Position numbers and translations under genes: made by a program. A stretch of 64,000 nt of DNA from a virus, in the IMG/VR virus record IMGVR_UViG_3300046522_000297, positions 50,008 through 114,007 of that record; one strand, 5' to 3'. Numbering within the stretch: position 1 is the stretch's first letter; each line of letters begins with the position of its first letter. Shown piece by piece: positions 45,043-62,842 of this stretch. The notes under the pieces are model-generated. The model saw only the letters and a list, made by a program, of their open reading frames with translations. It did no database searches and was not told where the DNA came from.

Positions 45043-48000
45043 TTAGTACGTTACTCTACTGATTTCGTACCAGGTAGAGTCTGCACTACGGAATACTAAG
45101 GTCATGGCCTGGACATACCCTGCGGTATTACCAAACTGGGCACTAGCTGCTCCGCCTGCAAAACGTACGTTAGTGTTAATCAACGTAACTGGCCAGGTAA
45201 CACCTAACAGCCTAATTTCTTCGCCATCTTGGACACCCGTAGTACCTAGGATACATCCGGTTCTAGCTGCACCAGAACCAGTGATAACCATAGTCTTTTG
45301 AGTAGGAGTCTGAGTTTGACCGTTCGCCGTAAAGCTAAGGTTATTTAAACTGGTGTACTCTCGGTTTATCTTAACAGCTTTATTAGCATCATCCAGGGTC
45401 AAGATCATAGTAGTTCCACCGCTAGGCCCGTTGAATGAACGTAGAGTGTTACTACTAAAATCGTCCTTCCAGTTCTTCGAGAAACGAGCTCCGTTAGCAG
45501 TTTCGAATACGTAGTTCGAGGTACCTAGACTGGTAAGCTCCGAAGTACAAGCATCGAAGTGGTTACCAATGACATATGCCGCTTGATACGAGTTTGACAG
45601 ACTGCGTAGTAAAACGCCGACTGCAAATCCTTCAAAATAGTTGCCGAATAGTTTCTCAGCAACAATATTCGCACCTAAGTCCACTCCATTACCTACTCCG
45701 CCGCCGGTAGATGATTGGAGAAGGTTACCCATGTAGGTATTTGCGCCGCCGGTAGTCAGCTTTATCGGTGAGTTAGATAGAATCTGATTACAGATAAACT
45801 TACATGCTTGTAATCCTAACGTCGTTCCATCTGAAATACCTATTGCAAATGCAAATCCCGCAACGCCGATAACATTATCCCTAGCAGTGTGAGTATACGC
45901 ACCTGCTACTGAAGCCGATGTATCTGGATCTACGTCAGCGTACAGAACCGCAGTCCCGACGTTGTTGGTAGCTGCCAAGAACCTATTATGCTCCCAGGTG
46001 CAGTGAGCAGCGTAGATACGCATACAGATTTGGTCACCACCCGGTCTAAACTGGATACCGATGATCCTGGTGTAAGCTGCTGCCACCTTTAGAAGATCGA
46101 AAGACCCGCTAAGGCTACGTAGATATGTCGTAGAAGAGCTCGCGCCCTCAAATACTAACCCCGCACCGGTGGAAGGTATCTTTAATGAAGATGTTATCAG
46201 GTACACCCCGGCTGGCAGAAACACCCTACGAACTGAACTTGAGCAAGCATAGTTAATAGCCGCTTGAATAGCAGCAGTATCATCCTTGACTCCATCACCG
46301 ACAGCACCAAACCACGTTACGTTAAGAGTGCCATTAAAAGCCCTCTTCCAACGTTTACCGTTGGAGGAAACGATGATGGTACCTGCATTATCTACACTAG
46401 TAGTATCGGTATCATCCCTTACGAAGTCCCCGGCCATACCGTTCAGACCTACGCAAGCAACTTTTCTAGGTCCGACATAATTTCTAAGAGCGGTATAGTC
46501 AGCTAACTGCAGGGCATTCAGAGAATCCGCAACGGTTTCTGTACCATTAGTAACTAGAGCGGCATCCGTAACTCCGATGGCAGCCGTTGATCTCGACAGC
46601 ACTTCGATAATACTTCCAGCAGGAGGAGCTTCACTGAACGTCAGAGTTTTACCAACGATACTATAAGTGGCCTTCTGCTGGTAAGATGCATTGATAAACA
46701 CATCTGAAACCATAACACCTACCGGGGTCTTGGCCAATGTGAAGGCAACCTTAGTGCCGTCGCCTACGAAATTATCAAGGTTTACGGTATTTCTATCTGC
46801 ACGGATCTGGTCCAGGATAGTTTTTACGTTGGTCGGAGCAGTGCCGTCGTTAGGGTTATAAACCGTTGTAGCTGCATCTGCTGCACTGAACGGGATTTCG
46901 TACTTGATAACTACTTCAATAGTGATACCGCTCAGAGGGGCTTCACTGAATGTCAGAGTAGTACCTAGCGCAGTGTACGAATCTTTTCTCTGATACACCC
47001 CATCGAAGTGAATATCTACTACGGAAGTGCCGCTCACTGAAACCGGCAAAGTGTAAACCGTAGTCGTACCATCCCCGATAAACATCGCAACGTACTGACT
47101 TGCACGTTTATCTAGCTCTGCCTTAACAGTTGTCTGAGTAACATTACCCGCAGGGGTATAGTTAACTCCTGTAGCATCAACCGTAGTCAGAGGAAGTTCT
47201 TTCCGAATAACTACTTCAATGTTATTAGTACCCGCTACCGGTGCCGACAGGAACGTTAAAGTAGTTCCATAGGCGGTATAAGTAGTTTTCTGCTGATATG
47301 CACCACTGATGTACACATCCAGGCTGGTTGGATTAGCAACGGCAACCGGTAGGTTGAAAGTAGTCGCTGAGCCAGTCCCCGAGTATCTAGCAACAGTAGC
47401 CGTACCACGTTCTTTCTTAAACGTGTCTAGGGCGTCCTTAACGTTAGAAACAATAAGGCCATCATCTGATAGGTACCTAGTTGTGGCAGCGTCAGACACA
47501 CCGATAGGCAGAGCATAAGTCACCGTAACTTCAATGCTTGCACCATTGTCTGGGGCAGAGCTGAAAGTCAAGTTAGTGCCACTCAGAGTATATCCAGATT
47601 TCTCCTGATAAACGGAGTTGATATGGACATGCATCATGTTGGCGTTAGGTATGGCAAACGGAAGCACAAAAGTCGTGTTTGAGCCGTTACCAGTATATCT
47701 GTACACGCCTACGGTATTACGCTGGTCCAGTGCGTCTTTGACGCTAGCTACGTTAGATCCATCGACTGCAGTATAGCTGATAAGAGATGCGTCGGTGCTT
47801 CCTAGCGGAGCGATGGCATCAAGGACGACTTCAACGTTATCCGTACCTGCTGGAGGAGCCTCGGTGAAAGTTAACAGGTTATTGGTAACGGTATACGAGC
47901 TCTTAAGCTGGTACAGGGAATCAATGTGGACATCAACCGCATTACCGAAAGCTGGCACTGGCAGGCTGAAAGTCGTTGTACTTCCATCACCTGAGAACTT

Positions 48001-48519
48001 ACGGACGAGACGAGTCAGTCGAGAGTCGAGGACATACTCGACGGTTGTATTAGCTGTTCCGTCTGAAGGAGTGTAGACAGTCGTGGCAGCATCGCCAGAA
48101 CCCAGCGGTAGAACTGTACGGATCTGAATTTCGATATTATCCGTGCCAGCAGGAGGAGCTTCTCCGAAGGTTAGCTGAGTACCGTCTACGGTGTAGGAAG
48201 ACTTTAGCTGATATGCTGAATCGATGTGAACTTCTACGGCACTCGGTCCAGGCGCTGCTGTCGGCAGGGTGAATACCTTATTAGAGCCGTTGCCTGAGAA
48301 CGTGGCTACAGTAATGCTACCCGCACCGATGCCTAAGCCTTTAGAGTCTACGTACTTTTTAGTAGCAGCCTCCATGTCCTCGGCAGGATCGCGGCTTAAG
48401 AAAAGGGGACCTTGAAGCGTGTCCCCTATTTTATTAACCGGTACGTAACCTAGTGCGCCAGCAATGTCTTCTGGTAGAATCGAAGTTTCTGCATCTGGCG
48501 GTAAACCGTAGTAACTCAT
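45043..48519 (-). CDS. scaffold tailspike with six tandem ~100-aa N-terminal repeats
   Basis: Six F/Y.G.G...F.LP...V.I...YQ....YT..G..LTF..AP..G..IEV units, then head domain and beta-helix. Confidence 0.85.
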   Translation of the reverse strand: MSYYGLPPDAETSILPEDIAGALGYVPVNKIGDTLQGPLFLSRDPAEDMEAATKKYVDSKGLGIGAGSITVATFSGNGSNKVFTLPTAAPGPSAVEVHIDSAYQLKSSYTVDGTQLTFGEAPPAGTDNIEIQIRTVLPLGSGDAATTVYTPSDGTANTTVEYVLDSRLTRLVRKFSGDGSTTTFSLPVPAFGNAVDVHIDSLYQLKSSYTVTNNLLTFTEAPPAGTDNVEVVLDAIAPLGSTDASLISYTAVDGSNVASVKDALDQRNTVGVYRYTGNGSNTTFVLPFAIPNANMMHVHINSVYQEKSGYTLSGTNLTFSSAPDNGASIEVTVTYALPIGVSDAATTRYLSDDGLIVSNVKDALDTFKKERGTATVARYSGTGSATTFNLPVAVANPTSLDVYISGAYQQKTTYTAYGTTLTFLSAPVAGTNNIEVVIRKELPLTTVDATGVNYTPAGNVTQTTVKAELDKRASQYVAMFIGDGTTTVYTLPVSVSGTSVVDIHFDGVYQRKDSYTALGTTLTFSEAPLSGITIEVVIKYEIPFSAADAATTVYNPNDGTAPTNVKTILDQIRADRNTVNLDNFVGDGTKVAFTLAKTPVGVMVSDVFINASYQQKATYSIVGKTLTFSEAPPAGSIIEVLSRSTAAIGVTDAALVTNGTETVADSLNALQLADYTALRNYVGPRKVACVGLNGMAGDFVRDDTDTTSVDNAGTIIVSSNGKRWKRAFNGTLNVTWFGAVGDGVKDDTAAIQAAINYACSSSVRRVFLPAGVYLITSSLKIPSTGAGLVFEGASSSTTYLRSLSGSFDLLKVAAAYTRIIGIQFRPGGDQICMRIYAAHCTWEHNRFLAATNNVGTAVLYADVDPDTSASVAGAYTHTARDNVIGVAGFAFAIGISDGTTLGLQACKFICNQILSNSPIKLTTGGANTYMGNLLQSSTGGGVGNGVDLGANIVAEKLFGNYFEGFAVGVLLRSLSNSYQAAYVIGNHFDACTSELTSLGTSNYVFETANGARFSKNWKDDFSSNTLRSFNGPSGGTTMILTLDDANKAVKINREYTSLNNLSFTANGQTQTPTQKTMVITGSGAARTGCILGTTGVQDGEEIRLLGVTWPVTLINTNVRFAGGAASAQFGNTAGYVQAMTLVFRSADSTWYEISRVTY

Positions 48520-53441: not shown

Positions 53442-55412
53442 TTAGTTAATTACTATGTTATTTGCTGCGATATTTTGAGCGTGCGTAGCTACCGAATCCA
53501 GTAGGAATACATTGGTTCGATCGTTGGGATCTAGAATGTCAGTAATGGTACCGGTCTCTATCGCCGTCAAATCCCTTGTATACTTCTTAAAGGTTACCTT
53601 CGGTGGATTCTGGATATTAACGATGCCGTTTAGTCTAAGCTGAGACATCATATCACTCATAACAAACATGTCGCCGAGATCTAGACTCTTTAAATAATTT
53701 TGGACTACAGATTCCACAGCAGAGGCATCCGGCACCGTAGAGTTATACGAAGTAACTTCAACGTTTAGTTTATAGAAGTTAAACCCTTTTGCCAAGTAGT
53801 CTGCACATAGCACCCTGTTAGCAGCATTATCTAGATAGTTCTGAATAGAGTCTAGATTCTGGAAATAGCCAATATCAAAACTAGCAGTCTTATTAGCATA
53901 TGCTGTACCGAAGTCCACTATCAGAGATTGTCTTTCGCTAAATCCAAAGTCTTTCCATGGGGTCACGAAAGTACATGTTGACGCAGTATTATCCATCATC
54001 CCTACTATAACCATAGGTAAATCAAAGGTAAACTGGTTCTCGTTAATAACTTCTTTTATCATCCAGGTACCATTGAGCTGTGTGATAAAGGATCCTTTTA
54101 TAAACACATGACGTCCAGGTATATACCCATGATTGGTAAGGGTAACTAGTGCGTAAGTCTCTTTAGCCTCTATCCGTATAATGCTCTTTGTTTCAAGATA
54201 CTCATTAGATACTGTGTAAGGGGTAGAGAAAGGAATCTGATCATCATCGTCACCGCCTGAGATTGAGCTTCGGCTGAACTCATAGATTGGTCCTGTAAGA
54301 TTTACTCTTCCAAACTCATCAGCGGTCAGCTGTATAGTAGACTTAGCTAAGGTGTCAGAGCAGAATACGTCAACCATACCTCCGTTGTGAACCATAGTAG
54401 GGTCATTGATATCAACTACAGTTGGCATAATGCTTATAAACGACGGATTGGATGTATTTGTGACCTTGAACACGGAAGAATCAAGGACGGTAATAGAGAA
54501 GTCTCCGTTATACCCCGAAGGTATCGCCCCGGATACACGGATTCTTTGCCCGGTCTTATATCCGTGGTTGGGGAGTGTTATCGTCGTTTCAGCCCCGTTA
54601 GATGTCATCGAGGTCGGAGTTCTAGGAATACTCGGTTCGAACACAACTCGGATCTGGTCACGAATCATCTCGGCATCCCCCATGCCTACTACCAGCAGAC
54701 GATCAATGTAGTTGAACTCTGCCTTGAGGTTAGAGTCCACACTCGGTACGTTGATCAGGTTACGGGTGGAGATTGCAGTCTTCGATCTCTCGATGAATTC
54801 AGAGTTAGTCTCGCTGTTAATACTTTCACTTTTCAGATAGTTGATCTCCGCTCTTAGAAAATAAGGATCGAAGTTACTGAAATAAAGCAGAGAACCTGAG
54901 GAGATGTTGTAATCGGTACCCTCTTTCTCAGCTACCAGTTCAATGTCAATGTAGTATTCATTACTGTATGAGTCAAAAGTCATTGCGTCAGCAGAGTACG
55001 AAATCGACTCTGAAGGCAGGAACTTGACGGTGTTATCAGTAGAAAAGTAGGTTGAGGAGCTAACACTGACATTCTTTTTACGGGCGAAGTAAAGTCTAGC
55101 GCTGATAACGCTCTTGATACCGATCTTACGAGTAAGGAACCAGTTACTCAGGATAGAGTCGAGGACTTCCGTAGGCGTGCTGTCGTCTACCCCATTAAGA
55201 GTATTCTGGGTGAAGTACTGATCAACACCCTTCTTAACCAACGTTAAAAGCAGGGCACTAGGTCTTAGTACCAGGTCCCGAAGGCCCGTACCTTCACGTA
55301 AATCTAAGTCTGGGAATTGGGCTTCCAATATCTGCTTGCACAGCAGCTCCGCCTCTAGAATTTCCTGAGAGGTCGGTTGAAGCCCGGGGATTACTGAATA
55401 TAAATCTGACAT
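53442..55412 (-). CDS. baseplate J-like wedge protein with inserted beta domains
   Basis: DLREGTGLRDLV, VAEKEGTDYNI, ETNSEFIER, GGMVDVF; two NHGY..G..I.I.G.....NG inserts. Confidence 0.75.
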   Translation of the reverse strand: MSDLYSVIPGLQPTSQEILEAELLCKQILEAQFPDLDLREGTGLRDLVLRPSALLLTLVKKGVDQYFTQNTLNGVDDSTPTEVLDSILSNWFLTRKIGIKSVISARLYFARKKNVSVSSSTYFSTDNTVKFLPSESISYSADAMTFDSYSNEYYIDIELVAEKEGTDYNISSGSLLYFSNFDPYFLRAEINYLKSESINSETNSEFIERSKTAISTRNLINVPSVDSNLKAEFNYIDRLLVVGMGDAEMIRDQIRVVFEPSIPRTPTSMTSNGAETTITLPNHGYKTGQRIRVSGAIPSGYNGDFSITVLDSSVFKVTNTSNPSFISIMPTVVDINDPTMVHNGGMVDVFCSDTLAKSTIQLTADEFGRVNLTGPIYEFSRSSISGGDDDDQIPFSTPYTVSNEYLETKSIIRIEAKETYALVTLTNHGYIPGRHVFIKGSFITQLNGTWMIKEVINENQFTFDLPMVIVGMMDNTASTCTFVTPWKDFGFSERQSLIVDFGTAYANKTASFDIGYFQNLDSIQNYLDNAANRVLCADYLAKGFNFYKLNVEVTSYNSTVPDASAVESVVQNYLKSLDLGDMFVMSDMMSQLRLNGIVNIQNPPKVTFKKYTRDLTAIETGTITDILDPNDRTNVFLLDSVATHAQNIAANNIVIN

Positions 55413-55462
55413 ATGGATAGGGTTAAGTGGTTTATTGATTAGTTTAACTGTTTACCCTGTGC

Positions 55463-55963
55463 TCAATCCCCGTTCAGTTTCAAGTCCAACTGAGGGAATG
55501 GTATAGCTACTTGGGCTTTTGCCCCAGCTTTCGTCAGGATACGAAGATATATTGCCACCGATTCTGAACCGGTATCTAGGCCTAGGATAGTCACTGCGTC
55601 TAACTGACTAGCAACGTCTGTGCCGATGTTTAGGATACGTTTTACCTGGCTTTCAGCAGATCGTATCTCTGTTACAAGATCGGCCATGAACACGGAATCA
55701 TCTTCGGTAATGTTAGCGTTTACTGTAAGTGTAGAGAAATTAGTCCCTTGGTTAGGGGATAAAACGTTAGATCCCAGACTAGTAAAAAGAATTTTTACAA
55801 ACATCTGGGCAACTTTCTGGATCCCTGTCACTTTCCTAGGAGTATCGTCTATATCGAAATCCAGTAACCCCTCTGGGAACCCATCTCCGTACTTTATAAG
55901 TAACAGATCGTTTAGGCCGCCCTGAGCCAGGTTAGTGGAAATGCCTAATCTAGTACTGCTCAC
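55463..55963 (-). CDS. gp25/W-like baseplate protein
   Basis: VTGIQKVAQ..VKILFT.LGSN...PNQGT. Confidence 0.65.
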   Translation of the reverse strand: MSSTRLGISTNLAQGGLNDLLLIKYGDGFPEGLLDFDIDDTPRKVTGIQKVAQMFVKILFTSLGSNVLSPNQGTNFSTLTVNANITEDDSVFMADLVTEIRSAESQVKRILNIGTDVASQLDAVTILGLDTGSESVAIYLRILTKAGAKAQVAIPFPQLDLKLNGD

Positions 55964-56361
55964 GGTGCGTCTCCCTCTACGTAAATTCCTCCAAGCATAC
56001 TAACCCAGAAGACTTTCATGTTGGCATAATAATCACTTTCACGGTTAGCTTCTGCTGAAGCGTCCGTATAGTAATCACTTTTCCTTTTACTTGAGATATC
56101 AAATTCTCTAATCAGTGCTGCCATTTGGTGAACATTCTCAATAGCAGCACCGTTCTCATAACTGGCTGAATCATCAGCTCGTATGTAGGTCATGCGGTGA
56201 AGCTCCGAGTAATCCAGCACGTCTATGACGTTGCTGAAGTCTGGAGGTTCCACGCTTCCGGTATCGTCTTTCAGATACTTGTATAGGTCATTGTAGAACT
56301 CCGCCAATTTGTCATTGGCGGTTTCTGCTTGTCCCAGTGCGCTGTTGGAATCTAACGGCAT
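55960..56361 (-). CDS. hypothetical protein
   Basis: Operonic ORF. Confidence 0.65.
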   Translation of the reverse strand: MPLDSNSALGQAETANDKLAEFYNDLYKYLKDDTGSVEPPDFSNVIDVLDYSELHRMTYIRADDSASYENGAAIENVHQMAALIREFDISSKRKSDYYTDASAEANRESDYYANMKVFWVSMLGGIYVEGDAP

Positions 56362-57086
56362 TAATACATCCCGCTTTCGGATTTGATACGCATAATCTTT
56401 TTCTCAAGGTTCTTCTTGAGGTAGTTAAGCCTATTAACATTGACACCCATCTTCTCGGCAAGAGCAGTTGAGCTAATGAGTTTAACATTGTCCAGGATAA
56501 TCTTTTCCTCGGGGGTCAGTTGGCTCATCAGGTGTTCCATTAGGATTGCACCTTCGTTAAACTGCGTGTACTCACCAGGTTTTTCACTGCTACTCTCAAT
56601 AAGGTCATTATATAGAGAGTTCTTGAACTTCACGGTCTGAGGCTTGGACCATCCAAGTTTCTTAGCCAGTTCTTCATCCGTAGGGTCACGGTTGAGTTCA
56701 TCTCTAAGGGAGGTGATAGAGTGGTTATACTCGTGGAACTTAAGCTGCAGGTTCTCAGGGAGACGGACTGCGTTCTGGTACTTATAGTTCATACGGCGAA
56801 CCTTCTGCAGATAGTTACTTACGTGAGTAGCCAGTGCAGATCCCTTAGAAGGATCGTAGGTTTGAATCGCCTTGATGGTCCATTTTTTAGCTTCAGCGGT
56901 CAGGGCTGCGCTAGGTAGACTGCCGCTGGCACGCTTTACTTCTGCACGGATGACAGGCATTAGGGATTCCATAAGGACCCCTAGATGCCTCTTGTCACCG
57001 GTGCTTCTCCAGCTCTCATACGCTTGTTGGTCTTTGTTTCTAAGTTCATTGAAGTATTGAGCTGTTGTTAAATTCGAATCGGTCAT
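56361..57086 (-). CDS. RNA polymerase sigma-70-family-like factor
   Basis: Region 2 KAIQTYDPSKGSALATHV, VRLP, region 3 LRDELNRDPTDEELAKKLG, region 4-like LTPEEK..LAEKMGV. Confidence 0.8.
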   Translation of the reverse strand: MTDSNLTTAQYFNELRNKDQQAYESWRSTGDKRHLGVLMESLMPVIRAEVKRASGSLPSAALTAEAKKWTIKAIQTYDPSKGSALATHVSNYLQKVRRMNYKYQNAVRLPENLQLKFHEYNHSITSLRDELNRDPTDEELAKKLGWSKPQTVKFKNSLYNDLIESSSEKPGEYTQFNEGAILMEHLMSQLTPEEKIILDNVKLISSTALAEKMGVNVNRLNYLKKNLEKKIMRIKSESGMY

Positions 57087-57280
57087 TTGTACACGCTGTA
57101 GTTAGAGTAGATCGTACTTACGTAACCAACTATATAAGCCTGAAGCTTATTGCTGAACTGTTGGTTTACGAAGCAATCTTTTGCAATAGAGGTTTCTGAA
57201 AGAAGGTTATTCTCTATTATAGCCGAAGGGATATTCGACCCCCTCGGCAATCCTGAATCAACTTTAATAGTATCACTCAT
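57083..57280 (-). CDS. hypothetical protein
   Basis: Operonic 65-aa ORF. Confidence 0.55.
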   Translation of the reverse strand: MSDTIKVDSGLPRGSNIPSAIIENNLLSETSIAKDCFVNQQFSNKLQAYIVGYVSTIYSNYSVYK

Positions 57281-57283
57281 ATA

Positions 57284-60200
57284 TCAATTTCCGTTAACTA
57301 AAGAACTAATTTCACCATAATCCAGGAACATACTTGCGCCTGGCTCCAAGGTCATGTCGGTGACTGCTACCTTGTTCTGGTACGTTACCGAAGTGCCGTT
57401 ATAGTTCTGTTCGATCAGGTCTATAAACTTCAGACCAAACTTGGATTCAATGCTCTTCTTACCCTCAATCTGCCTTGCTACCAGTCTTAAGTTACCGACA
57501 CCAGTTAGGTTAGGGTTACCCTCGCCGCCGTTCTTAGGTGATCTATCCGAGTGAGACGATCCTTCAGTCCAGTTACCGTTATGTCTAGCCACTGGTGAAA
57601 TTTGACCCGTCTCAAAGTTATAGATCAACCCGGGGTCAGCGCTGCTTACACCTAGAACACTTCTGTAGAACTTGTCTGCGATCTCCTTAGCTCTAGGGTT
57701 ATTGATAATGCCCTGTTGAATACTAGTGATATCGCCAGTGTTACTATCATAGGCCGGGTCAGGCGTAATCCCTAGAAGCGATGCTTTATCTAACGAGGTA
57801 TCTCCGCTGATAGCAGTAGCTGCGTCAGTAGCAGTATCCCCACCGCTGGTCAAACTAGAATCTCTTTCCACGTTCACCAGAGACAGTGCAGTCTTAAGCC
57901 ATGGGTGAATAGGCTGCATGTAATAGTTACTTAGCTCAGTATAGGTAGAAGCTGCCACAAATCCAATCGTAGTTCCTATACCACGTGCACTGATAGAGTG
58001 GGTCACACTAGCACACATTGCATGGAAGCAAGGGTGATTAGGGCTACCGTCAATGATATCCATCGGGTATCCAGGAACGACATATGGATTGAACAGGCCG
58101 TACACAGAACCGTTTCTACTACTTGCAACAGCCTTGGCGTACTCATAGTCCGCAGTAGCGAACAGGAGACGTTCATAAGCCATGATGTTACTCTTGATAG
58201 AGTACGGATCTAGAGTATCTTTACTATGATCTCGACTTACCGTAACGTTACCACTATCATCTACTAAGCTACTATACCCATACTTCTGGATCCATGCATA
58301 ATGGAGATCTAACAAATTCTTAGCCTCTACAGATCCCTTTTCCGGGAATTCGGCATCACTGCTGGATGCACGGTTATCGTCCTGGTCCTTTACGAAGTGC
58401 GACAGCCAATTGGGCATAGCGATCTTACGGTGGGTAATCCCTCTTCCCATCTCGTATTTACCCGGGATATTAAAGCTACTACCCGTAGTATCTCTAAGAG
58501 TCGGTTCATTGGAGTTATCCGCAGCCCCAAGCACTTTTCTACCCAAGGCAATTGACTCTCTAATACTTTGGGGAGCCCGGTAATTCATACCCATCAGGTT
58601 AGGATTATCTGCCGCCTGACTCGCTGCGGTCCCTACTGCTGTAATACGGGTCGGAACATCGTTCTCGTTCTGGCTTACGTCAACCGTGTGGAACATGTTC
58701 GGAAGAATCACATTGCAAATAGGTGAGTAATAGAACGGGATCTGTGGCTTAATGATGGTTTCCACCGCCATCTTGTCCACCTTGGCCCACGACTCAGGAG
58801 TGTCAGGGTCGGCATCAACTGTAGGGTCAATAGGCACTTCACTGGGGCTGGATAGAGTCAACATTTCGTACTCGATCCCATAGTAGAAGTTAGCAAATAG
58901 ATCATAAAAGTTAGCCAGTTCCCCGCTGAAACCTAAAGAAGACTTGAGGCTATTAACCACGAGTTGAGTCTGTACTGCACTCTGAATACCTACACGGAAT
59001 GCAGGGGGCAACATAACATCATTCTTGTTAAGTTCAGGCCTTGAGCTATCGTTACAATATGGGACTCTGCCTGCATCAATCTGATCTTCTAAGACCGGGT
59101 GACCACTGAGTCTATCGAAGAATCGGATACCATCCTCCATCAGTGGGACGAACATCTTGTTGAAGATAACGTTTAGCTTCTCATCAGCATAGACTTCCAT
59201 CTTCACCTGATTCCACATATTCATAATGGTAGTAGGCATACCGACCATACGCTTCTTAAGTGCCTCGAAACGTTTATCAAGCATGGCGGGATCCGCAGCT
59301 AGCACATTACTGTTTGACGGTGAAATTAGGTCTTTGGAATCACTCTGGACTCCAGTAATTCCCTGCAGCGCCCTAGCCAGCGAGTATTCACTGTTGAAAT
59401 TGTTGATCTGAACAGATGCCTGATCCGGGTTGTTATCAGTAAGGTTCGCCCCTTGAATAGCGTGGGCAGCACCGCCTCCGCTCCATTCGAACGTAAGCTG
59501 TCTCAGAAGTGCATTCTTGTGAACGCATTCAAACGAGATACTAGCCCCACCTTCCGCTTGGCTGTAGCGGTAGTTGCAAGCAATTATGTGGCCCCAGAAT
59601 AGAAGACGGGATCCTCCGGTGACTCTATCATCGTAGAATACATGGACCTTAGGTTGATAGCCACGGATGATATCCATAAGTCCTGAATTCGGAGGAACTT
59701 GTATAGATGCACCTGGGAGTTGACCTATGCTTTGGCTGATACTAATGCTTTCAAACGGGACTTGGACGCCCTCGATATAAAGGCTAACGTTCTGAACCAG
59801 CACGTCCGTCGAATCGTCCTCAGCAGATACCGAAATTCCTTCCTCAATTCCCTTAATAGAGATGGTCTTAGCGTATGGACTAACACTAGGGGCAGAAGCT
59901 TCGACTGTCGCTGTAGATGGCAGAGGGGTGGCGGTGTCAGCAGCTACGGCTTTAGCCTTGTCTGCCATTGCTTTCTCTATAACGCTAGAGTTGATCTGGC
60001 TTATCGTATTGTTCAGATAACTATTCGTCGTGCTGTATGCAGCAGAAATACTGGAGTCTGCAACACGGCTAGTGTCCACGAGCTTAGCCACTCCTACGTT
60101 AGTAACGTCTGAGTACAGGGCTGAGTTTGTTTTATTGATGATCTGGCTGTACGAATCAACGCCTGATGAGATAGACTCTTTAGTATATCGTTGAATATCA

Positions 60201-60535
60201 AACAGAGTGTTATCAGAGCCCGGAAGGCTCGACATTACGTTGGAGTCTATACCACTCATAACCTGAGTAGCATATGAAGAATACACTCCAGTATTAGAAG
60301 GGTCTACTCCACATGCGTAGTCTCTCATGCTCAGAATAGGCGCATAGAGTCCGTTACCGGAATCACCAGTGCTCTTAAGCAGGCTATTCTTGGCTACATC
60401 TGAAGTGTTTTTCAGTAGATTTGGTACTGAAGTCCCAGCAGTGGCTAGGGTTGTTACGGTCATTTTCGACAGCGCCGAGTTGTTAGACATGACGCTGCCG
60501 GTGATTTTATCTGAGAGGATGTTAAGAAGTGACAT
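57284..60535 (-). CDS. baseplate hub-like protein
   Basis: SLYIEGVQVPF.SISIS....ASIQVP, LLFWG.I, C-terminal FNPYVVPGYPM...SVTHSIS. Confidence 0.6.
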   Translation of the reverse strand: MSLLNILSDKITGSVMSNNSALSKMTVTTLATAGTSVPNLLKNTSDVAKNSLLKSTGDSGNGLYAPILSMRDYACGVDPSNTGVYSSYATQVMSGIDSNVMSSLPGSDNTLFDIQRYTKESISSGVDSYSQIINKTNSALYSDVTNVGVAKLVDTSRVADSSISAAYSTTNSYLNNTISQINSSVIEKAMADKAKAVAADTATPLPSTATVEASAPSVSPYAKTISIKGIEEGISVSAEDDSTDVLVQNVSLYIEGVQVPFESISISQSIGQLPGASIQVPPNSGLMDIIRGYQPKVHVFYDDRVTGGSRLLFWGHIIACNYRYSQAEGGASISFECVHKNALLRQLTFEWSGGGAAHAIQGANLTDNNPDQASVQINNFNSEYSLARALQGITGVQSDSKDLISPSNSNVLAADPAMLDKRFEALKKRMVGMPTTIMNMWNQVKMEVYADEKLNVIFNKMFVPLMEDGIRFFDRLSGHPVLEDQIDAGRVPYCNDSSRPELNKNDVMLPPAFRVGIQSAVQTQLVVNSLKSSLGFSGELANFYDLFANFYYGIEYEMLTLSSPSEVPIDPTVDADPDTPESWAKVDKMAVETIIKPQIPFYYSPICNVILPNMFHTVDVSQNENDVPTRITAVGTAASQAADNPNLMGMNYRAPQSIRESIALGRKVLGAADNSNEPTLRDTTGSSFNIPGKYEMGRGITHRKIAMPNWLSHFVKDQDDNRASSSDAEFPEKGSVEAKNLLDLHYAWIQKYGYSSLVDDSGNVTVSRDHSKDTLDPYSIKSNIMAYERLLFATADYEYAKAVASSRNGSVYGLFNPYVVPGYPMDIIDGSPNHPCFHAMCASVTHSISARGIGTTIGFVAASTYTELSNYYMQPIHPWLKTALSLVNVERDSSLTSGGDTATDAATAISGDTSLDKASLLGITPDPAYDSNTGDITSIQQGIINNPRAKEIADKFYRSVLGVSSADPGLIYNFETGQISPVARHNGNWTEGSSHSDRSPKNGGEGNPNLTGVGNLRLVARQIEGKKSIESKFGLKFIDLIEQNYNGTSVTYQNKVAVTDMTLEPGASMFLDYGEISSLVNGN

Positions 60536-61379
60536 TGGAATATAGACAGTATAGAGCCAGCATGTAAAGAGCTTTCTCTAATGGATCCTTGATGGAGTCT
60601 ATATATCCTCTATAATCCTCAGGTATCATTCGTAGCTCATTTACATATTCGCTAATTAATTGTAATCTATTTTCAGTTAACAAGCTAGTTAGCAAAAGAC
60701 TACGTATCGGTAAAGGTTCAGAAGGTAAAGCCTTCATACCAAGTACTGAGCCTGAGAAAGTTCTTGCAAGCCACACTACGAACGGGAATGTGCTGAATTC
60801 CACGCATCTCACTATGATGGGATCTTGAGAAGTAGGAGTAGGGATCACAGTAAGGACACCGTTATCCAATTTATAATCAATGCCTTCGGTCAATAGCTGT
60901 CCGTTGGAATAAACGTAGGCTTTGTCATAAGTACCATTCTCAGTAGACAGCGTATATTCAGAGACTTCTTCTTTAGTAGTGATAATCTCAGAATTTACCA
61001 GGAACTCGGGTACTACCTTAATTAAGTCATTCACCTTTGGAGGAGTCTGACCCGGGTGGCTTGCTGAATAGCATTTAACGCAAATTCCACCCTTGCTAAT
61101 ACAAGAGCTGGTATGTCTGGTTGCAATCTCATAAATGCCCTGACTTAGAAGATACTCAATCCTATCTCGGGTAAGAGCTTCATCCGTAGCCAATTCGATA
61201 ATACCCTCTGACTCAAACGTAAGGGTTTCGTATCTGCCGAGAGTAGTTCCGCAGTCATTCTCCACGATAGGTAAATTAGGATTGAAAATGCTCAACCCTA
61301 AGTTCACCATATCTGGATTATCAGCGGGAATTTCATCGAACAGATTTTCAAATAGTAATAGTGCTGAATATGTTCTCAC
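60522..61379 (-). CDS. protein with RNAP beta-prime-like Zn-binding domain fused to a virion-type beta repeat
   Basis: IVENDCGT...TRHTSSCISKGGICVKCY, then VYSNGQLLTEGIDYKL. Confidence 0.7.
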   Translation of the reverse strand: MRTYSALLLFENLFDEIPADNPDMVNLGLSIFNPNLPIVENDCGTTLGRYETLTFESEGIIELATDEALTRDRIEYLLSQGIYEIATRHTSSCISKGGICVKCYSASHPGQTPPKVNDLIKVVPEFLVNSEIITTKEEVSEYTLSTENGTYDKAYVYSNGQLLTEGIDYKLDNGVLTVIPTPTSQDPIIVRCVEFSTFPFVVWLARTFSGSVLGMKALPSEPLPIRSLLLTSLLTENRLQLISEYVNELRMIPEDYRGYIDSIKDPLEKALYMLALYCLYSNVTS

Positions 61380-62842
61380 AGCTTAGCCCCTGTTTCTGCA
61401 GTATGTCTCTGTCCTGAATTTAATAACGCTAATTTACCAGCCACCCTAGCAGAGGTATTAAGTCTAGGCTTATTCCCTGTTATAAACTTAGATGTTATAG
61501 GTAACCTACCTGAATTAAATAGTTCTTTTAGGGATGATGATATAGTCTTAGGTGATGCACTAATAACCCCCGCAGCGTTCTTGAGAGAAGATATTGTGTA
61601 AGCGATTTCTCTATCAAATCCAGTAACCTGATTACTAATACTGTGAATCGTATTATTAACTAGATTGACAACGCCGATAGCCTGATTACTTACGTTTCTC
61701 ACATCTCTAAGAATGTTTCTAACCGGATTAGTAAAAGAACTAATAACAGAAGATACATCGGCCCCAGCAGTTTTAATAAGCTTTGTTAATGAACTCAGAA
61801 CTCCATATATGGGGCTAAAAAGGCTAGCACGTACACCGCTAAGATTAGAGTTAAGTCCAGAGAACAAGCTATTAGCAGAGGTAATAAAACCGGTCCCACT
61901 GGTCCCAACTCCATCAACGGACGCACCCGACTGTGAAACGTGGGTAGGACCACTGCTTAGGCTAGTAAGTGATGTAGCATAATCCTTTACCGAAGATAAG
62001 GGGTTGGCGATAACGTTTTGTAGATCTTGTACTTTGTCTTGAAGGCTTTTCAGTTTGATACTGTTTTGTCCAGCCTTAGTTAAGAATCCACTAGCCTTAC
62101 TCCAGTTAATGACGGGGTCATTGGTCAACGGCTTATTCGGAACTGTAACCGGTTTAGGAGTAATCTGTTTAGCCAGGAAGCTAAACTGGAACGGGATGTC
62201 CACATCACGGGAAGAGTTTTGGCTCCAACCCATTCTGGTTACAGTGCCGTCGATGATCATATTAGGTAAAACGATCCTGACAAGCTCATAATTTCTAGCA
62301 AGTTCAGTACCTCGTAGAACGTGGGAATACATCTCCAGCCATTCTACAAACCAGTTGTTATCAACGCTATCTATTAGAATGCCACTGAAGTTGAACATGA
62401 TAGGTTGTCTACCGAAATAATACGTAACCTCAGCGTCGCCGAATACCTCTACAACTTGGAGCTTTTCCTCTAAGTTACAGTTCAAATCCGTAAGCAGGAA
62501 GGAAGCATAGCCCGACCCAGTAACCGCGTCTTTTAGAACACCACTGTTTGATGAACCCAGACTGGTAGGGGTAGCGCTGCCGTGGCTGGAAGTGCCATTC
62601 CTGTTAAGGCTTCTAGCGGTATCTGTGGTTAGGATTTTTATAAACGCACGTTCTCCTCGGTCCCCTCCGCCGTCTAGATAATTAACACTTCTACTACGGG
62701 TAGTAAACAGTCTCTCAGATTGAGTGATAGCACCACTAGTAGAATTAGCGCTGGAAGCCTTGTTAGCCAGATCCGTCATCTGGGAGTTGAACGGAGCTGA
62801 CAACGTTGCAAGTTCGAGACCTGTTTGTTTGCTGTTAGCCAT
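61376..62842 (-). CDS. tail tube initiator/baseplate protein
   Basis: FLLT......EK.QVVE.FG....YFGRQP..F.FSG.L.D. Confidence 0.55.
   Translation of the reverse strand: MANSKQTGLELATLSAPFNSQMTDLANKASSANSTSGAITQSERLFTTRSRSVNYLDGGGDRGERAFIKILTTDTARSLNRNGTSSHGSATPTSLGSSNSGVLKDAVTGSGYASFLLTDLNCNLEEKLQVVEVFGDAEVTYYFGRQPIMFNFSGILIDSVDNNWFVEWLEMYSHVLRGTELARNYELVRIVLPNMIIDGTVTRMGWSQNSSRDVDIPFQFSFLAKQITPKPVTVPNKPLTNDPVINWSKASGFLTKAGQNSIKLKSLQDKVQDLQNVIANPLSSVKDYATSLTSLSSGPTHVSQSGASVDGVGTSGTGFITSANSLFSGLNSNLSGVRASLFSPIYGVLSSLTKLIKTAGADVSSVISSFTNPVRNILRDVRNVSNQAIGVVNLVNNTIHSISNQVTGFDREIAYTISSLKNAAGVISASPKTISSSLKELFNSGRLPITSKFITGNKPRLNTSARVAGKLALLNSGQRHTAETGAKL

What the first reader, a model, noticed from the sequence alone, without database searches (positions are those of the whole stretch)
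60522..61379. RNA polymerase beta-prime Zn-binding domain fused to a virion-type module inside the baseplate operon
Seen: IVENDCGT...LT...LLSQGIYEIATRHTSSCISKGGICVKCY closely follows the RpoC second Zn site (E. coli VTEDDCGT...VRSVVSCDTDFGVCAHCYG; four Cys ligands kept). It is followed by YTL...VYSNGQLL.EG.DY.L..G.LT, similar to the tailspike scaffold repeats. No catalytic DFDGD is present. Inference: an RNAP fragment exapted as a structural protein, or a virion-delivered piece of a split phage RNAP.
Basis: partly seen in the sequence, partly recalled or inferred. Interest (0 to 1): 0.7.

Follow-up and report, generated by a model that had tools for sequence, protein, structure and literature searches.

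The report
Tail protein built on RNA-polymerase zinc module
A 285-residue protein encoded among the tail and baseplate genes of a ~185-kb phage really does carry a copy of the zinc-bound C-terminal module of RNA polymerase beta-prime; because the phage's own polymerase keeps that module, this is an extra copy, most likely reused as a virion part, which is an undescribed but only moderately surprising case of domain reuse.

Summary
ORF 60522-61379 (-) encodes 285 aa with no Pfam or PHROG match. Residues ~26-124 are homologous to the RNAP beta' second zinc site: profile vs PDB E 3e-8, hhalign vs phage beta'C 97% (E 3e-10). In fold searches only beta' chains cover the whole module. The four Cys are kept in 169-171 of 171 relatives. 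Residues 122-196 are a beta-sandwich like CBA120 TSP4/T7-fibre adaptor domains, related to six repeats in this phage's large tailspike.

It is not a missing piece of a split polymerase. A 93%-identical, complete relative and Salmonella phage Arash each encode beta, beta'N and a beta'C with its own zinc site.

The gene sits in a fixed order, TMP-like - g488 - g285 - hub-like g1083 - sigma - gp25-like - gp6-like, in 21 metagenomic loci plus Arash and a Vibrio phage. Family members keep the N and C modules, but the centre varies: nothing, one beta-sandwich, or LamG lectin domains. That pattern is typical of an exposed virion protein, and Arash gp7 was detected in particles.

Best reading (~0.7): a baseplate or tail-tip structural protein with an exapted beta' module. 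The donor lineage is unresolved. This scan reached the same reading earlier on related DNA (e1-5815701).

The parts
60522..61379 (-). g285: the 285-aa ORF (P0001). GTG start overlaps the stop of g488 (GTGA); the 3' end overlaps the start of g1083 by 14 nt.
   Evidence: All homologues begin MR(T/S)Y at the same codon.
61281..61379 (-). Residues 1-33: two N-terminal helices with invariant R2, L8 and E11. They may correspond to the C-terminal end of the beta' bridge-helix region, but this is only suggested.
   Evidence: AF2 secondary structure. Structural alignments that include residues 5-33 are weaker (8syi_Z Z 6.1, 116 aligned). hhalign starts only at residue 26-28.
61008..61304 (-). Residues 26-124: homologue of the beta' C-terminal module core, a Zn cluster (C43...C93-x6-C100-x2-C103) with an inserted RMOD/MoeA-N-like domain (~47-89).
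   Evidence: MoeA matches on residues 47-89. The architecture is as defined for beta' in PMC7824862.
61071..61253 (-). Span holding the four predicted Zn ligands: Cys43 (61251-61253), Cys93 (61101-61103), Cys100 (61080-61082) and Cys103 (61071-61073).
   Evidence: Kept in 171/171, 171/171, 171/171 and 169/171 family members (two have Asp at the last position).
60792..61016 (-). Residues 122-196: beta-sandwich of the tail-fibre/tailspike adaptor class (CBA120 TSP4 XD, T7 gp17 N-terminal, neck and baseplate Ig-like domains). It is a variable insertion, absent in Arash gp7 and other ~206-244-aa orthologues.
   Evidence: Profile hits to 9k4a (E 1e-4) and 8es4_G (E 4.5e-3). Absence in short forms. 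Relation to the six tailspike repeats.
60525..60791 (-). Residues 197-285: conserved C-terminal helical module (motif YLAxTYSGSxLGxxPLP, then helical hairpins). The first helices pack on the Zn module and align structurally with beta' elements downstream of the trigger loop; the rest has no recognised relative.
   Evidence: Structural alignment ranges extend to model residue ~153-160 of the short form. No profile-profile extension.
61376..62842 (-). g488: upstream, translationally coupled gene. Weak tape-measure/hub-like similarity in residues 260-456.
   Evidence: Syntenic in all loci.
57284..60535 (-). g1083: downstream, overlapping gene and positional orthologue of Arash gp8 (a virion protein with a phage-lysozyme domain). 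Presumed hub/spike protein; no lysozyme domain is detectable in this copy.
56361..57086 (-). Sigma-70-like factor gene embedded in the same operon. It is the most conserved gene of the block (59-68% identity among the diverged loci; 98% in the two near-identical ones).
53442..55963 (-). gp25-like (55463-55963) and gp6-like (53442-55412) baseplate wedge genes. These define the operon as a baseplate operon.
   Evidence: phrog_43 E 8e-4 and phrog_6 E 3e-11.

Best explanation
g285 is a virion structural protein of the tail tip or baseplate in an Arash-like, ~185-kb contractile-tailed phage.

Its conserved core has two parts: an N module (residues 1-~124) and a C-terminal helical module (197-285). 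The core is built around a zinc-stabilised domain that descends from the C-terminal module of RNA polymerase beta' (a Zn cluster with an inserted RMOD domain). In g285 this module has lost its polymerase context: there is no bridge-helix/trigger-loop catalytic element and no DPBB. I infer that it now serves as a rigid, Zn-locked anchoring or assembly core that fixes the protein in the hub-proximal baseplate.

Between the two conserved modules lies a hot spot that carries nothing, one tail-fibre-type beta-sandwich (this phage), or LamG/ConA-like lectin domains. I infer that this centre is displayed outward, either as an accessory host-surface or glycan contact or as a docking site for the branched tailspike set.

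Shown: homology, the conserved Zn ligands, operon position, the variable insert, and the presence of an independent complete phage RNAP. Inferred: Zn binding itself, location in the baseplate, and the anchoring and display roles.
For: 1. Homology to the beta' zinc-site region by sequence and fold. The same 'RMOD inserted in a Zn cluster' architecture is described for beta' in PMC7824862 (MoeA hits).
2. The four Cys are essentially invariant in 171 relatives.
3. The gene order g75-g488-g285-g1083-g65-sigma-g133-gp25-like-gp6-like-g730 is kept in 21 IMG/VR loci, Arash and Vibrio phage D181, with overlapping starts and stops.
4. g285 diverges like its structural neighbours (38-51% identity), not like the polymerase (beta'C 63-80%).
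5. The central region varies: none, a beta-sandwich, or LamG lectin (PF13385) inserted or appended.
6. The beta-sandwich belongs to the same class as the repeats of this phage's own tailspike and as known fibre/spike adaptor domains.
7. Arash gp7, the positional orthologue, was detected in purified particles: 77% coverage, 7 unique peptides, 202 spectra (PMC10585845).
8. The lineage has a full RNAP whose beta'C keeps its own zinc site, so g285 is not needed to complete the enzyme.
Against: - No structure or localisation data place the protein in the baseplate.
- The Arash 'structural proteome' lists 116 of 272 proteins, including metabolic enzymes, so detection there is weak proof of virion residence.
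- No solved baseplate protein resembles the conserved core.
- A sigma factor gene sits in the same operon, and the polymerase may be packaged in this lineage. A transcription-linked role for a beta'-derived module therefore cannot be dismissed.
- Zn binding is predicted, not measured.
Confidence: 0.7

Rival explanations
1. RNAP-linked adaptor or mimic. The tail-borne beta'-derived module keeps a polymerase-related contact. It would either dock the phage's (possibly packaged) RNAP-sigma holoenzyme at the tail hub for co-injection, or bind a host RNAP subunit or factor by mimicking the beta' C-terminal module.
For: - The module is a true beta' homologue.
- A sigma-70-like gene is fixed in the same operon in every locus.
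- In Arash particle preparations the beta-beta'N fusion gp206 was the most detected protein, and beta'C and sigma were also found (PMC10585845).
Against: - Lectin and beta-sandwich inserts point to an exposed extracellular role.
- In known holoenzymes sigma contacts the beta' clamp helices and the beta flap, not this module (my own knowledge, not tested here).
- The residues shared with beta' are mainly the Zn ligands and fold-determining positions.
- The Arash proteome is not stringent.
Confidence: 0.1
2. A non-virion tail or baseplate assembly factor (chaperone or scaffold) that acts during morphogenesis and is absent from, or substoichiometric in, the finished particle.
For: - Its position next to tape-measure-like and hub genes, with translational coupling.
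- No match to any solved baseplate component.
Against: - Arash gp7 was found with 77% coverage in particles.
- Variable lectin and Ig-like inserts are unusual for chaperones and typical of exposed virion proteins.
Confidence: 0.12
3. A working subunit fragment of a split phage RNA polymerase, i.e. the missing beta' piece, delivered by the virion.
For: Sequence and fold homology to beta'. Split beta' subunits exist in phiKZ/AR9-type phages (PMC7598289 and PMC7824862, listed).
Against: - The lineage's beta'C already contains the zinc site and the GVIAAQS trigger-loop motif.
- g285 lacks those motifs, and the homology stops at residue ~126.
- Conservation is low relative to the RNAP subunits.
- Lectin insertions are present in family members.
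Confidence: 0.03
4. A chance or convergent four-Cys zinc knuckle with no evolutionary relation to beta'.
For: The shared region is short (~96 columns) and structural Z scores are moderate (~8).
Against: - Profile E 3e-8 and hhalign E 3e-10.
- 24-31% identity over 83-90 structurally aligned residues.
- Beta' chains are the only PDB chains with Z>=5 for the core model, and they fill the top 50 Foldseek hits.
- Identical ligand spacing and flanking motifs: DCGT, R-x4-C, G-x-C-x2-C-Y.
Confidence: 0.03

Closest known systems
C-terminal module of bacterial/phage RNAP beta' (second Zn site, E. coli C814/C888/C895/C898; 'RMOD domain inserted in a Zn cluster', Iyer et al. 2021, PMC7824862)
   Same: Four Cys with the same spacing and flanking motifs. 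The MoeA-N-like (RMOD) insert lies between ligand 1 and ligands 2-4. There is significant profile and fold similarity over ~96-116 residues.
   Different: It is not part of a polymerase subunit: there is no bridge-helix/trigger-loop motif, no jaw or C-terminal clamp parts, and no DPBB. It is encoded in a baseplate operon, joined to a family-specific helical module, and carries virion-type inserts.
The lineage's own beta'C subunit (Arash gp216; P0057 in the 184,920-bp relative)
   Same: It gives the best-scoring relatives of the g285 module: median 37.9 bits and maximum 48, against at most 36.3 for solved bacterial beta'. It shares DCGT/DCHT and C-x6-C-x2-C.
   Different: beta'C is ~608 aa, 63-80% conserved, and carries the trigger-loop motif and the rest of Pfam RNA_pol_Rpb1_5. 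The tree places the g285 family on a long stem outside it. A bacterial origin is not rejected (AU p 0.11).
Salmonella phage Arash gp7 ('structural protein', PMC10585845) and Vibrio phage D181/D148/D69 orthologues
   Same: Same operon position, same N (Zn) and C modules (profile 81 + 64 bits), and detection in particles.
   Different: 221-226 aa and lacking the central beta-sandwich. Only ~32-34% identical over the N module. Never annotated as beta'-related.
XD / T4 gp10-like beta-sandwich adaptor domains of tailspikes and fibres (CBA120 TSP4 residues ~181-251; T7 gp17 N-terminal region)
   Same: Fold of residues 122-196 (Z 8.5/7.9, rmsd 2.0-2.5, 64-71 aligned, 24-27% identity).
   Different: Here it is a single copy inserted inside another protein rather than at the N-terminus of a spike. 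Oligomeric state is unknown.
Split beta' C-terminal subunits of phiKZ/AR9 jumbo-phage RNAPs
   Same: A stand-alone polypeptide carrying the beta' C-terminal module. Weak structural matches: 7ogp_D Z 4.0 and 7s00_D Z 3.7.
   Different: Those are true enzyme subunits with the trigger loop and are the only copy per enzyme. g285 is a supernumerary, truncated copy in a structural operon.

Membership tests
RNAP beta' C-terminal module (Zn cluster + RMOD) | Four Zn ligands, C...C-x6-C-x2-C, with the DCGT and G-x-C-x2-C-Y context | tested here: met
   C43/C93/C100/C103 are invariant in alignment A1 and in 169-171 of 171 relatives. The codons were verified.
RNAP beta' C-terminal module (Zn cluster + RMOD) | Significant sequence-profile similarity to beta' at the homologous region | tested here: met
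   hmmsearch vs PDB E 3.2e-8, always on the zinc-site region. hhalign vs phage beta'C: 96.8%, E 2.9e-10, A1 28-126 to beta'C 219-316.
RNAP beta' C-terminal module (Zn cluster + RMOD) | Same fold, including the MoeA-N-like (RMOD) domain inserted between the first and later ligands | tested here: met
   6edt_D: Z 8.6, rmsd 2.6, 83 aligned, 31% id. Only beta' chains reach Z>=5 among 48,161. The top 50 Foldseek hits are all beta'. MoeA matches residues 47-89 at Z 4.8-6.7.
RNAP beta' subunit (functional polymerase subunit or split beta'C subunit) | Bridge helix and trigger-loop elements (G-x-x-V/I-G-x-I-A-A-Q-S motif) flanking the Zn site | tested here: not met
   The homology ends at residue ~126. 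The motif is present in phage beta'C but absent in g285. No Pfam RNA_pol_Rpb1_5 hit.
RNAP beta' subunit (functional polymerase subunit or split beta'C subunit) | Being the genome's (or the enzyme's) only copy of this module | tested here: not met
   Arash gp216 and P0057 (from the 93%-identical relative G001) each have their own zinc site. Beta and beta'N are also present. The window's own contig lacks that region: it is 71% complete with no hit.
RNAP beta' subunit (functional polymerase subunit or split beta'C subunit) | Catalytic NADFDGD / DPBB | tested here: not met
   No DFDGD in the ORF and no Rpb1_2 hit.
Contractile-tail baseplate/hub operon component | Conserved position among tape-measure-like, hub, gp25-like and gp6-like genes | tested here: met
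   Synteny in 21 loci plus Arash and D181. phrog_43 E 8e-4 and phrog_6 E 3e-11, with tail fibre and spike genes downstream.
Contractile-tail baseplate/hub operon component | Physical presence in the virion or baseplate | not testable with these tools
   The only evidence is literature: Arash gp7 by LC-MS of particles (PMC10585845), and that preparation listed 116 proteins.
Contractile-tail baseplate/hub operon component | Fold of a known conserved baseplate protein (gp27/gp5/gp25/gp6/gp7/gp53-like, LysM/gpX) | tested here: inconclusive
   No such chain appears among the matches to either model. Absence from the lists does not exclude a relationship.
Tail-fibre/tailspike XD (T4 gp10-like) beta-sandwich domain | Fold and profile similarity | tested here: met
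   7rej_A Z 8.5, rmsd 2.5, 71 aligned; 7rfv Z 7.9. 9k4a E 1.1e-4 and 8es4_G E 4.5e-3. Six repeats of the window's tailspike, E 1.7e-7.

The most novel reading that the evidence does not exclude
The beta'-derived module is not just a scaffold but still recognises a polymerase partner. On this reading g285 sits at the tail hub and tethers the phage's own packaged RNAP-sigma holoenzyme, or captures a host RNAP component, so that transcription machinery is delivered or redirected at the moment of DNA ejection. That would explain why a sigma gene is fixed inside the baseplate operon.
Probability: 0.08. Interest if true: 0.85.

Novelty: new variant of a known kind. Interest (0 to 1): 0.5.

Why it matters
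Domains of the core transcription enzyme are among the least mobile in biology. The papers I searched and read here describe no copy of the beta' C-terminal Zn-cluster/RMOD module outside a polymerase.

This family is unannotated: 114 clusters at E<=1e-30 and 638 at E<=1e-3, with no Pfam or PHROG model. In it the module has been copied into a tail-operon protein and kept under strong selection for its zinc ligands. That gives a clean natural example of exaptation of an RNAP part.

It also supplies an annotation for a 'hypothetical/structural' gene in Arash-like phages. And it flags a lineage in which a complete phage RNAP, a sigma factor gene inside the baseplate operon, and a beta'-derived tail protein coexist. 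This arrangement is testable in a cultivable phage (Arash on Salmonella Typhimurium ATCC 14028).

Tried and rejected
- Pfam and PHROGs on g285 gave no hits. The ESM Atlas gave no usable hit.
- BFVD Foldseek matched only the beta-sandwich.
- hhalign did not extend the homology into the C-terminal helical module. My idea that the whole core equals the beta' 'shelf' therefore rests only on partial structural alignments and stays a suggestion.
- Pairwise BLAST of g285 against the 1158-aa tailspike was not significant; only the family profile shows the relation.
- phmmer of the neighbours g1083 and g488 against PDB found nothing.
- The donor of the module could not be resolved. In trees of the ~110-column module the g285 family is monophyletic on a long stem. 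It attaches between the Arash-like beta'C clade and the bacterial/other-phage beta' clade. The quick tree groups g285 with phage beta'C at only 82% SH-aLRT, and an AU test does not reject g285 plus bacteria (p 0.11). An AU test on the 113-row set did not finish in ~10 minutes.
No binding test was made.
- The 'moraphage' paper (PMC12619734) concerns a different lineage without an RNAP.
- The window's own 114-kb contig shows no RNAP_Rpb1_5 match. By comparison with the complete relative, the RNAP genes lie beyond the contig end.
Full report
THE GENE. ORF 60522-61379 on the minus strand encodes 285 aa (P0001). Its GTG start overlaps the stop of the upstream 488-aa gene (GTGA) and follows an AGGGG Shine-Dalgarno-like run. 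Its last codons overlap the ATG of the downstream 1083-aa gene by 14 nt. Every homologue starts MR(T/S)Y at the same codon. The protein has six Cys. Pfam and PHROGs give no hit.

IS THE RpoC RESEMBLANCE REAL? Yes.
- Single-sequence phmmer against all PDB chains returned 20 hits at E<=10. Nineteen are RNAP beta' chains, all aligned on the region of the second zinc site, best E 0.009.
- A 26-member family alignment (A1) has the four Cys invariant. As a profile it hits beta' at E 3.2e-8, e.g. M. smegmatis 929-998.
- Profile-profile comparison with the phage lineage's own beta'C family (A2) gives probability 96.8%, E 2.9e-10, over 96 columns: A1 28-126 to beta'C 219-316.
- AlphaFold2 models are confident: pLDDT 89 for the window protein and 93 for a short-form relative.
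- For the full model, beta' chains align at Z ~8 with 86-90 residues at 21-26% identity.
- For the short-form core, an unbiased alignment to 48,161 PDB representatives found only two chains with Z>=5, both beta'. These are 6edt_D (Z 8.6, rmsd 2.6, 83 aligned, 31% identity) and 8syi_Z (Z 6.1, 116 aligned). All top 50 Foldseek hits are beta'.
- The only other recurrent match is the MoeA/gephyrin N-terminal domain on residues 47-89 (Z 4.8-6.7). This is exactly what Iyer et al. [quoted passage not shown]
- Across 173 family members that cover the module (171 with a residue at these positions), the ligands are kept in 171/171, 171/171, 171/171 and 169/171 (two Asp).

THE REST OF THE PROTEIN. Residues 122-196 are a beta-sandwich. 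It matches the XD domain of CBA120 tailspike 4 (Z 8.5, rmsd 2.5, 71 aligned), T5/DT57C, phage 812 and P74-26 neck proteins, the T7 gp17 N-terminal region, and P1, phiKZ and phi812 baseplate proteins. The family profile also hits a K1 depolymerase (E 1e-4) and HRP29 gp44 (E 4.5e-3). It hits the six ~97-aa repeats of this window's 1158-aa tailspike as well, with six periodic matches to profile positions 126-192 and full-sequence E 1.7e-7. Pairwise BLAST alone is not significant. Residues 197-285 form a conserved helical module (YLAxTYSGSxLGxxPLP...) with no recognised relative. Its first helices pack on the Zn module and are included in some structural alignments to beta', but hhalign does not extend there.

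FAMILY ANATOMY. An exhaustive profile search of 1.84 billion representatives found 638 proteins at E<=1e-3 and 114 at E<=1e-30. Members keep the N module and the C module, but the centre varies:
- absent in 206-244-aa forms, including Arash gp7 (226 aa) and the Vibrio phage orthologues;
- one beta-sandwich in the ~285-aa majority;
- larger inserts in 345-860-aa forms.
Several of the large forms carry LamG/ConA-like lectin domains (PF13385), either inserted (P0233, P0241, P0253, P0255) or appended (P0213). A conserved anchor with a hypervariable lectin or Ig-like display region is the signature of an exposed virion protein.

CONTEXT. Downstream genes include a gp25-like wedge protein (phrog_43, E 8e-4), a gp6-like wedge protein (phrog_6, E 3e-11), tail-fibre proteins and a set of pectate-lyase-type tailspikes. 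The order g75 - g488 - g285 - g1083 - g65 - sigma - g133 - gp25-like - gp6-like - g730 is identical in 21 IMG/VR loci, in Salmonella phage Arash (gp5-gp14) and in Vibrio phage D181. Among the diverged loci, g285 is 38-51% identical, like g488 (33-52%) and g1083 (39-51%). The embedded sigma-like gene is 59-68% identical. In Arash, gp7 was detected in purified particles with 77% coverage, 7 unique peptides and 202 spectra. However, that analysis listed 116 proteins, among them metabolic enzymes, so it is weak evidence (PMC10585845).

IS IT A PIECE OF A SPLIT POLYMERASE? No.
- Arash gp206 (1525 aa) is a beta-beta'N fusion (Rpb2_6 E 3e-56; Rpb1_2 E 6e-16). Gp216 (606 aa) is beta'C (Rpb1_5 E 9e-16).
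- gp216 has its own DCHT...C-x6-C-x2-C-Y-G site followed by the GVIAAQS trigger-loop motif.
- The window's contig is a 114-kb fragment (71% complete) with no Rpb1_5 match. A 93%-identical, 184,920-bp complete relative encodes beta (a 1140-aa frame), beta'N (a 393-aa frame) and a 608-aa beta'C with its own DDCGT...C..C..C site.
- The beta'C family is large and 63-80% conserved.
So g285 is a supernumerary, truncated paralogue of the module.

WHERE DID THE MODULE COME FROM? The A1 profile scores the lineage's beta'C at a median of 37.9 bits (maximum 48). Solved bacterial beta' chains score at most 36.3 bits, and E. coli only ~11. In maximum-likelihood trees of the ~110-column module, the g285 family is monophyletic (100/98) on a long stem (1.29 substitutions per site). 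It joins the RNAP sequences between the Arash-like beta'C clade (plus one fused phage beta-beta') and a clade of bacterial and other phage beta'. The split 'g285 + phage beta'C' versus the rest has only 82% SH-aLRT support in the quick tree. An AU test does not reject g285 grouping with bacteria (p 0.11). Duplication of the phage's own gene is plausible but not shown.

MECHANISM. The most likely reading (confidence ~0.7) is a Zn-locked, rigid core derived from beta' that anchors the protein in the hub-proximal baseplate. The variable centre would face outward, as an accessory glycan or cell-surface contact or as a docking point for the branched tailspikes.
- Shown: homology, ligand conservation, synteny, the insert variability, and the independent complete RNAP.
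- Inferred: metal binding, virion location, and the anchoring and display roles.

RIVALS.
- An RNAP- or sigma-linked adaptor or mimic (0.10). This is prompted by the sigma gene in the operon and the abundance of RNAP subunits in Arash particle preparations.
- A non-virion assembly factor (0.12).
- A true split subunit (0.03).
- Chance convergence (0.03).

EARLIER NOTES OF THIS SCAN. A follow-up on a related genome (e1-5815701) reached the same conclusion: a beta' module reused in a tail-operon protein. My tests were run independently and agree. I am more cautious than that note about the donor lineage.

VERDICT. I found no description of it in the papers searched here. It is a moderately surprising case of domain reuse: a new variant of a known kind.

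Noticed in passing
window 56361-57086 (-), with flanking small ORFs 57083-57280 and 55960-56361: A sigma-70-like gene (Sigma70_r3, phrog_351) lies between the hub-like and gp25-like genes and is tightly coupled to two small ORFs. It is the most conserved gene of the block (59-68% identity among the diverged loci) and is present at this spot in all 21 related loci, Arash and Vibrio phage D181.
   Followed up: partly
L003:5094-9671 (Arash gp206); L030/L035 (relative G001); P0325-P0332: RNAP subunit architecture varies in these phages. Arash fuses beta to beta'N (1525 aa), while the window's close relative has them in separate frames (1140 aa and 393 aa). Other phage-like contigs encode single 2062-2878-aa beta-beta' fusions, several with intein/Hint domains (PF14528, PF14890).
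   Followed up: partly
window 57284-60535 (-): The 1083-aa positional orthologue of Arash gp8 has no detectable lysozyme domain. Arash gp8 has Phage_lysozyme at E 9e-26; the window copy has no Pfam hit and no PDB sequence hit.
   Followed up: partly
window 45043-48519 (-): The 1158-aa tailspike carries six ~97-aa tandem repeats (about 88-638 aa) of the same beta-sandwich class as the g285 insert. It also has a T7-tail-fibre N-terminal domain and a pectate-lyase body. This suggests shuffling of the domain among tail proteins.
   Followed up: partly
P0213, P0233, P0241, P0253, P0255 (family members from metagenomes): Some g285 homologues carry LamG/ConA-like lectin domains, either in the central insertion site or at the C-terminus. 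They are candidate glycan-binding baseplate proteins.
   Followed up: partly
PMC10585845 (Arash proteome): The RNAP beta-beta'N fusion was the most detected protein in particle preparations, and sigma had 100% coverage. Whether this lineage packages a sigma-containing multisubunit RNAP is open. This would differ from the sigma-less phiKZ/AR9 virion RNAPs.
   Followed up: no
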